52,288 nt of DNA from Escherichia phage vB_EcoM_Bp10: sequence record MN122072. The stretch is one strand, 5' to 3'. Positions 9,473 to 15,432 of the stretch are shown here, piece by piece. Both the position numbers and the translations under genes were made by a program. The notes beneath the pieces were generated by a model. The model had not been told where the DNA came from. It did not search any database and saw only the letters and a program-made list of their open reading frames with translations. Position 1 is the first letter of the stretch. Every line of letters starts with the position of its first letter.

Positions 9473-9946
9473 ATGCCAAAGCAAGATTGGTCTATTAATA
9501 CTGGTGAAGCATATGCAGGTGAACAATACGGCCTGGCTACCACCAACTCCCAGCGCCTGACTTACGTTGCCGAAGAAGAAATGGCAAACTTTGGTCTGGC
9601 TGTTGTTCAAGGCACGGCCTCTAATCAGGTTAAACCTGGTATTGAATCTGATGGCACTGTTCTGGGCATTACCATGCGCCAGATTAACATCGAATCTGCT
9701 ACTCGTCCTGGTGACGGTACTGTTGCTATTAAAGTTGGCTGGCCTCTGGGCGTTATGCTGTCTGGCCCAATCATGGTCAAACTGAAAACCGCAATCACCG
9801 ACAAGAACATCGGCGTATCCACTAAAGGTGAATTTGGTGGCGTTGGTGCTGGCTATACTAAGGCAACCAACCTGACTGCCCTGCGTTATCCGGCTTCCGC
9901 TGGTGATGTTGTCCCGGTCATGATTAACGTAGTCCCAAAGCCGTAA
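9473..9946 (+). CDS. head-associated structural protein (decoration-like), zero-frame product
   Basis: 157 aa with capsid-like codon usage, directly upstream of the major capsid gene; terminates 3 codons after a CCCAAAG slippery heptamer. Confidence 0.5.
   Translation: MPKQDWSINTGEAYAGEQYGLATTNSQRLTYVAEEEMANFGLAVVQGTASNQVKPGIESDGTVLGITMRQINIESATRPGDGTVAIKVGWPLGVMLSGPIMVKLKTAITDKNIGVSTKGEFGGVGAGYTKATNLTALRYPASAGDVVPVMINVVPKP
9934..9940 (+). other. candidate -1 programmed frameshift site (C CCA AAG)
   Basis: Canonical X_XXY_YYZ heptamer in the zero frame, two codons before the stop; the -1 frame is open from here to 10239; imperfect hairpin at 9957-9987. Confidence 0.5.
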
Positions 9947-10239
9947 CGCCACCTCCAGCTCCTACAGTATCTGCTGTAGCAGGAGCTGTAACTGCTGACG
10001 CATCTGTATCTGATGCCACTGTGACTGTGGACAAACTGTTTAAGTTTGAGAACTCCACAGCAACAGACTATCACTTCGCTGTTACACCTCCGGTGACTGG
10101 TGTTTCCGTGGCGGCAAACGGCACTGTGACTGTCCTGAATGAGACAATCACAGGTACTTCTGCGACAATCAAGGCAACAAATAAAACAGCATCTGGCGTA
10201 ACTGCAACCAAAGAAATTACCATTACGCCGAAGGCTTAA
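9940..10239 (+). CDS. -1 frame extension: Pro/Ala/Thr linker plus Ig-like (BIG2-like) domain
   Basis: Translation AVTPPPAPTVSAVAGAVTADASVSDATVTVDKLFKF...TATKEITITPKA; the -1 frame has no stop between 9928 and 10239; beta-rich Thr/Val pattern typical of Ig-like decorations. Confidence 0.5.
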   Translation, partial: AVTPPPAPTVSAVAGAVTADASVSDATVTVDKLFKFENSTATDYHFAVTPPVTGVSVAANGTVTVLNETITGTSATIKATNKTASGVTATKEITITPKA

Positions 10240-10294
10240 GTTGCACTGGCGCAATTAATAGTTGCGCCTAACCAAACAATATGGATTAAATTAC

Positions 10295-11302
10295 ATGCCT
10301 AAGATGATTAAACTGGCGGACGGTTCTGAATTCGAACTGAACGACGCTATCACCCGTATTCAGGATTCTGGCACTGTTGTCCTGAATGACGACGATGCAG
10401 TATTCTTTCAACGCCAGCTTGAGTACATTGAAGCTCAAACTTACGACACTCTGTATCCAGAACTGGAAGCTCGTGCTGCTTTCGGTGTGGACACTACTGG
10501 TGGTGCTGGCGTAAACACTCTGACCTACCGTTCTTACAACCATGTTGGTAAAGCTCAGGTAATTAATGCCCGCGCAACCGACCTGCCGAAGTCCAGCATT
10601 TCTGGTAAAGAATACAGTATCCCTGTTAAATCTGTTGGTACTGCATTCGACTACGATATTGATGAAGTGGCATCCGCTGCTGTTACTGGCCTCCCTCTGG
10701 AAACTCGTAAAGCAAATGCTGCTATTCGTGGTTATGAACAGTATGTTAACTCTGCTGCATGGTACGGCGATAAAGCTAACGGCTTTGTTGGCTTCTTCGA
10801 AAACCCAGACATCACCAAAGCAACTGTTGCTCAGGGTGCTAGCAAGTCTACCAAGTGGGCCGAGAAGACTCCGACCGAAGTTATTGCCGACCTTACTGCT
10901 GCTGTGTCTGCAATGTATGCCTCTACTCTGAAAATCATGCGCCCGGACGAAATCTGGATGCCTGTTGAGCATGAGCAGTACATCTTCAACACTGCACGTT
11001 CTGAACAGTCTGACAAGACGATTGGTCAGTTCTTCATTGACAACAACCAGTTCATCAACTCCCGCGATAAAATCAAGGGTCTGAACGCAATCAAAGGTCA
11101 CGGCGATTCTGGTTCTGATTGCTTCGTTGTTGTTTGCCGCAATGCAATGGGCAACCGCACTTTCCGTCTGCGTGAACCTCTGCCGCTGACCTGGCAACCG
11201 GTACAGCTTCATGGCCTGGTTTATGAAGTTCCTGGTCGTGGTCGTTTCGCTGGCTTCCAAGTGATGTATCCGGCAGCAATCTCCATCAACTCCGGCATCT
11301 GA
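10295..11302 (+). CDS. major capsid protein (HK97-fold candidate)
   Basis: About 335 aa, strongly optimised codon usage, follows portal and scaffold genes. Start uncertain: TTG 10262, ATG 10295 or ATG 10304. Confidence 0.7.
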   Translation: MPKMIKLADGSEFELNDAITRIQDSGTVVLNDDDAVFFQRQLEYIEAQTYDTLYPELEARAAFGVDTTGGAGVNTLTYRSYNHVGKAQVINARATDLPKSSISGKEYSIPVKSVGTAFDYDIDEVASAAVTGLPLETRKANAAIRGYEQYVNSAAWYGDKANGFVGFFENPDITKATVAQGASKSTKWAEKTPTEVIADLTAAVSAMYASTLKIMRPDEIWMPVEHEQYIFNTARSEQSDKTIGQFFIDNNQFINSRDKIKGLNAIKGHGDSGSDCFVVVCRNAMGNRTFRLREPLPLTWQPVQLHGLVYEVPGRGRFAGFQVMYPAAISINSGI

Positions 11303-14973: not shown

Positions 14974-15432
14974 ATGGCTTGTGAATTGCTTCAACGTGAA
15001 TTCACAAACTCCAAAGGTGAAACAGTGTTAGTCGTTGTTCGACAATTGTCGGCTTCGGCTGCACTGTCTCTTCACGCGGAGTTGGTAAGCAAGCTAGGCT
15101 CACGAGTATTCCCATTCATCGAAGGCAAATATAACTTCGCTGATATTATATACTTGATGCAGCAAGTGGAGCATACCGTATTCACAGAATTGTTTAAGCG
15201 TGTTATCAGCATGCACTCGTCCATAGATGGACAAGAAATCAAACCTGCATTATATGATATGCAGTTTAATGGCGAATTGATGTTGTCTTGCCATGTCTTT
15301 GCTTTCGTGCTCGAAGCAAACTTCCTTGATTTTTTCAAGCAAGGGCTCGAAATCAACGAACAGAGACGATTGGAGGCGGAGGAAGCATCCAAGCTGGCAG
15401 AGCAGAAGAATTCGAGTCCGGAGACAGTTTAG
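14974..15432 (+). CDS. tail assembly chaperone, short form
   Basis: 152 aa immediately upstream of the tape measure; contains the TTTTTTC slippery heptamer near its 3' end. Confidence 0.6.
   Translation: MACELLQREFTNSKGETVLVVVRQLSASAALSLHAELVSKLGSRVFPFIEGKYNFADIIYLMQQVEHTVFTELFKRVISMHSSIDGQEIKPALYDMQFNGELMLSCHVFAFVLEANFLDFFKQGLEINEQRRLEAEEASKLAEQKNSSPETV

What the first reader, a model, noticed from the sequence alone, without database searches (positions are those of the whole stretch)
9934..10239. Candidate -1 programmed frameshift (C_CCA_AAG) appending an Ig-like domain to a head protein
A canonical slippery heptamer sits two codons before the stop of the 157-aa head gene, and the -1 frame is open for 98 more codons encoding a Pro/Ala/Thr linker and a beta-rich Ig-like domain. 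An imperfect hairpin lies at 9957-9987, about 16 nt downstream. A minor fraction of this protein would then carry a surface Ig-like domain.
Basis: partly seen in the sequence, partly recalled or inferred. Interest (0 to 1): 0.7.

Follow-up and report, generated by a model that had tools for sequence, protein, structure and literature searches.

The report
Frameshift adds Ig domain to capsid cement protein
This coliphage almost certainly makes two versions of its capsid "cement" protein, a short one and, through a programmed -1 ribosomal slip at C_CCA_AAG, a longer one with a surface Ig-like domain; the trick is known from other phages but is not annotated or reported for this phage family.

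Summary
The window is a Chaseviridae (Carltongylesvirus) coliphage. Gene 9473-9946 encodes a 157-aa capsid cement/decoration protein (Pfam PF22758). C_CCA_AAG lies in frame at 9934-9940, one codon before the TAA stop. The -1 frame is open to 10239 and encodes a Pro-rich linker plus an Ig-like beta-sandwich.

Comparative evidence is strong. Of 34 distinct related loci, 27 carry a long -1 extension. Of these, 23 keep C_CCA_AAR and 4 keep N_NNA_AAG, always 0-1 codons before the stop. The 6 loci without an extension have no such site. The codon before CCA varies among nine codons, all ending in C. The linker, upstream of any start codon, is under purifying selection only in the -1 frame (pN/pS 0.27 against 1.9 and 2.4). 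The extensions have no conserved start codon or Shine-Dalgarno sequence. The predicted fold begins 19 residues upstream of the annotated GTG start.

At least three unrelated domain types sit behind the same junction. No in-frame fusion was found. The downstream hairpin exists but is not conserved.

Verdict: a well-supported, unannotated new member of a known kind, namely Ig-like C-terminal extensions made by -1 frameshifting. The trans-frame protein itself has not been observed.

The parts
9473..9946 (+). 0-frame gene for the 157-aa capsid cement/decoration protein
   Evidence: Pfam PF22758 Phage_cement, E 2.4e-17, 63.8 bits against a cut-off of 27. PHROG 563 virion structural protein. AF2 model pLDDT 83; Foldseek matches decoration proteins of T1, Pam3 (TM 0.72), TW1, XM1 and E217, and the phi29 gp8.5 base. 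It lies between the protease/scaffold gene (DUF2213) and the major capsid gene.
9934..9940 (+). Slippery heptamer C_CCA_AAG (P-site CCA to CCC, A-site AAG to AAA)
   Evidence: In frame. Conserved as C_CCA_AAR in 23 of 27 relatives that have the -1 extension. The preceding codon is GTC, ATC, GGC, TCC, GCC, CTC, GAC, TTC or AGC, always ending in C. It is the most efficient -1 heptamer measured in E. coli (PMC4066793; PMC5009743).
9944..9946 (+). 0-frame stop codon TAA, ending the short 157-aa form
   Evidence: In every relative with the site, the stop follows the Lys codon by 0 or 1 codon.
9940..9963 (+). -1 frame Pro-rich linker (AVTPPPAP), read only after the shift
   Evidence: No start codon lies upstream in this frame, which opens at 9928. 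For codons 2-28 after the heptamer start, which also cover the first residues of the domain, pN/pS is 0.27 in the -1 frame against 1.9 and 2.4 in the other frames.
9964..10239 (+). -1 frame Ig-like beta-sandwich domain, ending with stop 10237-10239
   Evidence: PHROG 13745 'Ig domain containing protein', E 2.7e-7. AF2 pLDDT 85.8 with nine strands, the first at extension residues 9-12. Foldseek matches the Ig-like domain of T5 pb6, the phi29 gp8 BIG2 domain and invasin.
10021..10239 (+). The 72-aa ORF as annotated in public records (GTG start); judged not to be an independent gene
   Evidence: The GTG corresponds to extension residue 28, so starting there would remove three predicted strands. 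No SD-like sequence precedes it. Candidate starts in relatives fall anywhere from codon 7 to codon 81. Gene callers chose at least five different starts.
9956..9997 (+). Downstream hairpin, a candidate stimulator that is not conserved
   Evidence: -26 kcal/mol for 9941-10020, z = -2.5. Relatives give z from -3.8 to +0.2 with different shapes and spacers. RNAalifold consensus is -6.2 kcal/mol with a covariation term of +0.24.
10295..11302 (+). Major capsid protein gene (context)
   Evidence: Pfam PF09950 Major_capside, E 2.1e-48.

Best explanation
Ribosomes translating the cement-protein gene (9473-9946) mostly terminate at TAA 9944 and give the 157-aa protein. That protein should decorate the outside of the capsid as gpD-like trimers. 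At C_CCA_AAG (9934-9940), a fraction of ribosomes slip one base back: tRNA-Pro re-pairs CCA to CCC and tRNA-Lys(UUU) re-pairs AAG to AAA. These ribosomes miss the stop and continue through 9940-10236. The result is a 254-aa protein reading ...VVPK-AVTPPPAP-[Ig-like beta-sandwich]. It would co-assemble through its cement part, so a subset of capsid positions would display an Ig-like domain on a Pro-rich tether.

Shown here: the signal, its conservation, coding constraint across the junction, the lack of an independent start, and the two folds. Inferred: that the slip really occurs, its frequency, the outward position of the domain, and a weak-adhesion role like that of other phage Ig-like domains.

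The heptamer alone is probably sufficient. No conserved stimulatory RNA structure was found.
For: The heptamer is in frame and the -1 frame is open for 101 codons. Among 34 distinct loci, 27 have a -1 extension of at least 93 codons past the stop. Of these, 23 have C_CCA_AAR and 4 have N_NNA_AAG, which retains A_AAG, the best tetramer motif. All 6 loci without an extension lack the motif. One locus has the heptamer plus an internally deleted 49-codon remnant.

The third base of the preceding codon is C in nine different codons, whereas NNC usage in this phage is 0.10-0.61 and CCA makes up 0.36 of Pro codons. pN/pS is 0.27 in the -1 frame for the 27 codons after the heptamer, upstream of any start codon, and 1.9-2.4 in the other frames. 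There is no ATG in 25 of 27 extensions, GTG/TTG candidates are at inconsistent positions, and no SD is present. The AF2 fold starts at extension residue 9, whereas the annotated GTG is residue 28.

Different domain types (BIG2-like; Ig_2/I-set-like, Pfam Ig_2 28.2 bits against a cut-off of 27; and a third type) sit behind the same junction, even within the species Loessnervirus Y2. C_CC.A_AA.G is the most efficient E. coli -1 motif, reaching 54% with a pseudoknot, and A_AA.G is the best tetramer (PMC4066793). Ig-like C-terminal extensions made by frameshifting are documented in T3, A2, A118 and A500 (-1) and PSA (+1) (PMC5009743).
Against: No protein-level evidence exists. No virion proteomics for this phage group was found in the searchable literature, and the original phiEcoM-GJ1 and Y2 papers are not held. 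No in-frame cement-Ig fusion exists among the 86 cement-protein hits (lengths tabulated) or the 46 clusters at 50% identity (longest 187 aa), so there is no 'Rosetta stone' support. The downstream hairpin is not conserved. No upstream SD-like stimulator is evident, so efficiency could be low. Four relatives lack the full heptamer. One relative (L032) has a TTG/GTG only 7 codons after the site, so independent initiation is conceivable there.
Confidence: 0.87

Rival explanations
1. The downstream ORF is an independent small gene, as in public annotations (72 aa from GTG 10021). It would be translated by its own initiation and would join the virion, or act elsewhere, as a free Ig-like protein.
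For: All 107 related GenBank records that annotate the region treat it as one or two separate CDSs, and none is shown with a joined CDS. A GTG exists at 10021.
Against: No SD precedes the GTG. Annotated starts differ between records: 10021 and 10027 equivalents, the 1168 and 1294 locus positions, and others. In flopper, 4HA13, L017, L018 and L037 the first candidate start is at codon 52-81, inside the domain. The stretch upstream of the GTG is under purifying selection in that frame and forms the first three strands of the predicted fold. This reading also does not explain the nucleotide-level conservation of CCCAAAG.
Confidence: 0.05
2. Termination-reinitiation or translational coupling. Ribosomes finish the cement protein at TAA 9944 and restart nearby in the -1 frame on a non-canonical codon, giving a separate Ig protein of about 99 aa.
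For: The stop lies 0-1 codons after the conserved site in all relatives. Coding constraint begins right at the junction, which a restart close to the stop would also explain.
Against: No ATG, GTG or TTG lies within 25 codons of the stop in the window, and no SD-like sequence is present. A restart model does not predict conservation of the exact X_XXA_AAG register or of the C at the third base of the preceding codon across nine different codons.
Confidence: 0.04
3. An unexpressed relic. A former in-frame fusion was broken by an indel, or there is an assembly error, and the Ig region is decaying.
For: The domain is dispensable in evolution. It is absent in Nefertitivirinae and in some close relatives, and it is internally deleted in Yersinia phage PYps4T.
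Against: The same frame arrangement is present in 27 distinct genomes from independent isolates and metagenomes. The ORFs are intact, with pN/pS of 0.3. Domains have been duplicated and exchanged behind the junction. These are signs of ongoing selection, not decay.
Confidence: 0.03

Closest known systems
Ig-like C-terminal extensions of phage capsid proteins made by programmed frameshifting: T3 gene 10, Lactobacillus phage A2 major head protein, Listeria phages A118 and A500 (all -1), and PSA (+1). This is the class described by Fraser et al. and summarised in Atkins et al. 2016, PMC5009743.
   Same: A slippery site lies at the very end of a virion structural gene. A second frame encodes an Ig-like domain. 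Two products arise from one gene and both would be incorporated in the capsid. Domains appear to have been acquired by recombination and landed out of frame.
   Different: The carrier here is the auxiliary cement/decoration protein (PF22758, gpD-like fold), not the major capsid or tail protein. The phage family is Chaseviridae. Several unrelated Ig-type domains alternate behind one conserved junction. No protein evidence exists yet.
Lambda G/GT-type tail assembly chaperone frameshift (G_GGA_AAG)
   Same: An X_XXA_AAG heptamer is read by the shifty E. coli tRNA-Lys, and no obligatory RNA stimulator is needed (own knowledge). The window also has a likely example of this type at 15330.
   Different: The protein, its function and the position differ. 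In G/GT the shifted product is an assembly factor that is not part of the virion.
phi29 head fibre gp8.5, and lambda gpD used as a display platform
   Same: Both have the same decoration-protein base fold (Foldseek hit to the gp8.5 N base) carrying an outward appendage or fusion.
   Different: In phi29 the appendage is encoded in frame and is a helical fibre, not an Ig domain. gpD fusions are engineered.
T4 Hoc
   Same: Non-essential Ig-like domains displayed on the capsid surface, proposed to mediate weak adhesion to glycans or mucus (own knowledge).
   Different: Hoc is a separate protein of several Ig domains, involves no recoding, and binds at hexamer centres.

Membership tests
Bacterial -1 programmed ribosomal frameshift site (X_XXZ_ZZN type) | Slippery heptamer in the 0-frame register that allows re-pairing of the P- and A-site tRNAs | tested here: met
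   C_CCA_AAG at 9934-9940 is in frame. It is the most efficient motif in E. coli.
Bacterial -1 programmed ribosomal frameshift site (X_XXZ_ZZN type) | The -1 frame is open from the site and encodes a conserved polypeptide with no initiation signal of its own | tested here: met
   101 codons are open. There is no conserved start or SD. pN/pS is 0.27 across the junction-proximal 27 codons.
Bacterial -1 programmed ribosomal frameshift site (X_XXZ_ZZN type) | The motif is conserved beyond what the amino-acid sequence requires, and it co-occurs with the -1 ORF | tested here: met
   23 of 27 extension-bearing loci have C_CCA_AAR and 4 of 27 retain A_AAG. None of the 6 loci without an extension has it. 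Nine different preceding codons all end in C.
Bacterial -1 programmed ribosomal frameshift site (X_XXZ_ZZN type) | Stimulatory element (downstream hairpin or pseudoknot 5-9 nt away, or an upstream SD-like sequence) | tested here: inconclusive
   The window has a hairpin at 9956-9997 with z = -2.5, but the spacer is 15 nt. It is not conserved. No upstream SD-like sequence was seen, and Rfam gave no match. This feature is not obligatory for the class.
Bacterial -1 programmed ribosomal frameshift site (X_XXZ_ZZN type) | A trans-frame protein is produced | not testable with these tools
   Needs MS, western blot or a reporter assay. No published proteomics was found.
Phage cement/decoration protein (Pfam PF22758; E217 gp24 / Pam3 gp6) | Sequence match above the curated cut-off | tested here: met
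   63.8 bits against 27, covering residues 4-152.
Phage cement/decoration protein (Pfam PF22758; E217 gp24 / Pam3 gp6) | Fold shared with solved capsid decoration proteins | tested here: met
   AF2 pLDDT 83. Foldseek matches Pam3 8hdt_G (TM 0.72), T1 9kzj, TW1 5wk1, XM1 7kmx and E217 8frs. A PDB sequence-profile search found nothing.
Phage cement/decoration protein (Pfam PF22758; E217 gp24 / Pam3 gp6) | Bound on the capsid exterior at three-fold positions | not testable with these tools
   Needs cryo-EM of this phage.
Phage surface Ig-like domains (BIG2 / I-set / FN3 class) | Ig-like beta-sandwich fold | tested here: met
   AF2 pLDDT 85.8 with nine strands. Foldseek matches T5 pb6, phi29 gp8 and invasin, E 1e-4 to 7e-3, TM about 0.6.
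Phage surface Ig-like domains (BIG2 / I-set / FN3 class) | Match to a curated Ig-family sequence model | tested here: inconclusive
   The window's domain has no Pfam hit above cut-off, only PHROG 13745 at E 2.7e-7. The alternative domain in relatives reaches Pfam Ig_2 at 28.2 bits against 27.

The most novel reading that the evidence does not exclude
The junction may be a fixed 'cassette port', made of the heptamer, the adjacent stop and about 5-8 codons of conserved Pro-rich linker (CCCAAAG-NCG-TAA-CGCCNCC). Behind it, unrelated Ig-like domains are exchanged, duplicated or deleted by recombination, even within one phage species. The out-of-frame arrangement would then be selected in itself: no in-frame fusion appears among the 86 cement-protein hits or the 46 clusters at 50% identity. 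The implied reason is that full occupancy of the cement trimers by Ig domains is harmful, so the heptamer would act as a stoichiometry setter. The four N_NNA_AAG variants would then be natural low-efficiency settings.
Probability: 0.35. Interest if true: 0.55.

Novelty: new member of a known kind. Interest (0 to 1): 0.42.

Why it matters
It corrects the annotation of a whole phage subfamily (Cleopatravirinae). At least 53 of 107 public genomes have the cement gene and this window's type of Ig domain in two frames, and every record whose annotation was displayed lists them as separate, often 'hypothetical', genes. It predicts a second capsid protein species. It shows the auxiliary cement protein, and not only major capsid or tail proteins, acting as a carrier for frameshift-delivered Ig-like domains. 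These phages are being explored for therapy and biocontrol of E. coli, Yersinia, Erwinia and Pectobacterium. A naturally sub-stoichiometric, swappable display site on the capsid is relevant to adhesion and mucus binding, and it could serve as a ready-made display platform.

Tried and rejected
**In-frame fusions.** I looked for a cement-Ig fusion encoded in one frame and found none. The search for homologous proteins with the trans-frame sequence gave 86 cement hits of at most 177 aa. phmmer of the cement protein against 1.84 billion representatives gave 46 hits of at most 187 aa. tblastn of the fusion always returned two pieces.

**Conserved stimulatory RNA.** Folds of individual relatives were inconsistent. 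RNAalifold gave no covariation. Rfam gave no hit.

**Other mechanisms.**
- Upstream SD-like stimulator: none seen by inspection.
- Transcriptional slippage: rejected, because the longest homopolymer run is 3 nt.
- Stop-codon readthrough: rejected, because the 0 frame has further stops within 11 codons.
- Promoter or terminator between the two ORFs: none found.

**Searches that could not be completed or gave nothing.**
- PDB sequence-profile search for the cement protein: no hits; the fold search was needed instead.
- The original phiEcoM-GJ1 and Y2 genome papers are not held.
- One literature search was wasted by using too loose a term filter.

Full report
**What the window is.** A 1.2-kb stretch around the finding is 99.8% identical to Escherichia phage vB_EcoP_Bp7 and 85-97% identical to phiEcoM-GJ1, ST32, flopper and others. 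These belong to Chaseviridae, Cleopatravirinae, Carltongylesvirus. A protein-cluster name and a contig length of 52,288 suggest the window is phage vB_EcoM_Bp10. The local gene order is terminase, portal, DUF2213 protease/scaffold, the 157-aa gene, the small ORF, then the major capsid protein.

**Check of the observation.** The 157-aa ORF (9473-9946) ends GTA GTC CCA AAG CCG TAA. CCCAAAG is at 9934-9940 in X_XXY_YYZ register. The -1 frame opens at 9928, directly after a TAA, and stays open to 10239. From the heptamer it reads PKAVTPPPAPTVSAVAGAVTADASVSDATVTVDKLFKFENST...ITITPKA. The first ATG, GTG or TTG in that frame is GTG 10021. The hairpin is there: 9956-9997, -26 kcal/mol for the 80 nt folded, z = -2.5. 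This is the only in-frame CCCAAAG in a long ORF of the window.

**What the two parts are.**
- The 157-aa protein matches Pfam PF22758, 'Structural cement protein (E217 gp24/Pam3 gp6)', at 63.8 bits against a cut-off of 27.
- Its AF2 model (pLDDT 83) matches solved capsid decoration proteins: T1, cyanophage Pam3 (TM 0.72), FCWL1, HFTV1, TW1, XM1, E217 and the base of the phi29 head fibre. It is therefore a gpD-like cement/decoration protein rather than a generic 'head protein'.
- The -1 product matches PHROG 13745, 'Ig domain containing protein'.
- It models as a nine-strand beta-sandwich (pLDDT 85.8). The best structural matches are the Ig-like domain of T5 tail tube protein pb6, the BIG2 domain of phi29 gp8, and invasin.
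- The first strands are extension residues 9-12, 17-20 and 26-28. GTG 10021 is residue 28, so the annotated 72-aa ORF would lack about a third of the fold.

**Comparative test.** I collected 34 distinct versions of the locus, including the window. Sources were IMG/VR, GenBank phages and metagenome contigs. Cement-protein identity to the window ranged from 99% down to about 35%.
- 27 loci have a -1 ORF running at least 93 codons past the cement stop.
- 23 of these have C_CCA_AAG (two have C_CCA_AAA) in frame, 0 or 1 codon before the stop.
- The other 4 have G_GCA_AAG, G_TTA_AAG, G_GTA_AAG or A_GTA_AAG at the same place. They keep A_AAG.
- All 6 loci without a -1 ORF lack any such motif. These are Shewanella, Aeromonas and Vibrio Nefertitivirinae, plus three Cleopatravirinae-like metagenomic phages, one of them 83% identical in the cement protein.
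- One locus (Yersinia phage PYps4T) has the heptamer and an internally deleted 49-codon remnant.
- The residue before Pro varies (V, I, G, S, A, L, D, F), but its codon always ends in C: GTC, ATC, GGC, TCC, AGC, GCC, CTC, GAC, TTC.
- In this phage's structural genes, NNC codons make up only 0.10-0.61 of those residues' codons, and CCA is 0.36 of Pro codons. The heptamer is therefore maintained at the nucleotide level.
- Among 86 cement-protein clusters, 66 end in PK followed by 0-2 residues.

**Evidence that the junction is translated in the -1 frame.** I compared seven phages with the same domain type. For the 27 codons that follow the heptamer and precede the window's first candidate start, pN/pS is 0.27 in the -1 frame but 1.9 and 2.4 in the other two frames. 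The domain proper gives 0.31. There is no ATG in 25 of 27 extensions. GTG/TTG candidates fall anywhere from codon 7 to codon 81 and lack SD-like sequences. Gene callers and annotators chose at least five different starts. Only a ribosome arriving from the cement ORF can translate this stretch.

**Modularity.** At least three unrelated domain types follow the same junction.
- The BIG2-like '..DKLF..' type of the window.
- An Ig_2/I-set-like type (Pfam Ig_2, 28.2 bits against 27).
- A third '..GKGDV..' type.
- Erwinia phages Y2 and Nougat, both assigned to the species Loessnervirus Y2, carry different types.
- Flopper and one metagenomic phage carry two tandem domains.
- Only the heptamer, the stop and 5-8 linker codons (V-[VAT]-[TA]-P-P/A-P) are shared.

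**Mechanism.** C_CC.A_AA.G is the most efficient -1 heptamer measured in E. coli, reaching 54% with a strong pseudoknot. A_AA.G is by far the best tetramer. About 61% of heptamers shift detectably without any stimulator (PMC4066793; also PMC5009743). The shiftiness rests on the single tRNA-Lys(UUU) of these hosts.

I found no conserved stimulator. Folding the 80 nt downstream of the site in 12 further relatives, z ranged from -3.8 to +1.0 (to +0.2 among the heptamer-bearing loci), with different shapes and spacers of 6-30 nt. The alignment fold gave -6.2 kcal/mol with no covariation support. One compensatory pair of synonymous changes in L007 (ACA/GCT to ACC/GCG) keeps the inner stem within the genus, so a lineage-specific modulator cannot be excluded.

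The most likely mechanism is tandem slippage driven by the heptamer itself, as in lambda G/GT (own knowledge). Efficiency is unknown.

**Rivals.** An independent gene, termination-reinitiation and a dead relic were each considered. Each fails to explain at least two of the following: heptamer conservation, coding constraint upstream of any start, the fold boundary, and active domain exchange. See the rival entries.

**What is missing.** No in-frame fusion exists in any homologue. No proteomic or other experimental report for this phage group was found in the searchable literature, and no displayed record annotation joins the two frames. The two original genome papers are not held, so I cannot exclude that they mention it.

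**Comparison with the known.** The kind is established: Ig-like C-terminal domains added to phage structural proteins by frameshifting in T3, A2, A118, A500 and PSA. The new elements are the carrier (a PF22758 cement protein), the phage family, and the clear picture of one conserved recoding junction serving several interchangeable domains.

**Verdict.** I rate it a new member of a known kind. Confidence that the frameshift operates is about 0.87. Interest is moderate (0.42): it is not surprising to a recoding or phage-structure specialist, but it is well supported, is unannotated in every record whose annotation was displayed, and is directly testable.

Noticed in passing
window 15330-15336 (ORF 14974-15432; -1 frame open to ~15608): A second candidate -1 frameshift. 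T_TTT_TTC lies in frame in the tail assembly chaperone gene (PHROG 11820, E 2.5e-75). A 92-codon -1 extension ends at the start of the 1241-aa tape-measure-like ORF, and its C-terminal 50 residues match PHROG 4364. This is the classic G/GT arrangement.
   Followed up: partly
window 10248-10268: A perfect 7-bp hairpin (GGCGCAA / TTGCGCC, 7-nt loop) lies just after the Ig-ORF stop and before the major capsid gene. It has no T-run, so the terminator scan did not call it. It may be an mRNA-processing or stability element.
   Followed up: no
L008 (phage flopper) 2462-3049; L032 1965-2555: Two tandem Ig-like domains follow the frameshift site instead of one (195 and 197 codons from the heptamer). 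This explains the 282-bp insertion seen in flopper and JL1.
   Followed up: partly
L036 (Yersinia phage PYps4T) 1362-1520: The heptamer is retained, but the Ig domain carries an internal deletion between two 'TVTV'-like strands. This leaves a 52-codon -1 ORF from the heptamer (49 codons past the stop). The extension is evidently dispensable.
   Followed up: partly
L026, L027, L028 (metagenomic relatives); proteins P0006, P0017, P0034, P0059, P0062, P0070, P0071, P0073: Cement proteins that lack the heptamer and the Ig ORF often end in short in-frame Pro/Ala-rich tails (for example ...NVFSKGAATPGE...VPGTTPPAAGGGE). These may be linker remnants left after loss of the domain.
   Followed up: partly
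L038 (Erwinia phage Nougat) 1680-2009: An extra annotated 109-aa hypothetical ORF lies between the Ig extension and the major capsid gene. It is absent from the window and from Y2.
   Followed up: no
hit H19 (PP952070.1): A record named 'Staphylococcus phage Pel53' (host Staphylococcus hyicus) is 88.9% identical in DNA to this enterobacterial Chaseviridae region. The host label looks doubtful.
   Followed up: no
L021 (Proteus phage Myduc), L033, L034, L035: Four relatives have an intact Ig extension but only N_NNA_AAG at the junction: G_GCA_AAG, G_TTA_AAG, G_GTA_AAG and A_GTA_AAG. If these are expressed, the shift would rely on A-site tRNA-Lys slippage alone, next to the stop codon.
   Followed up: partly
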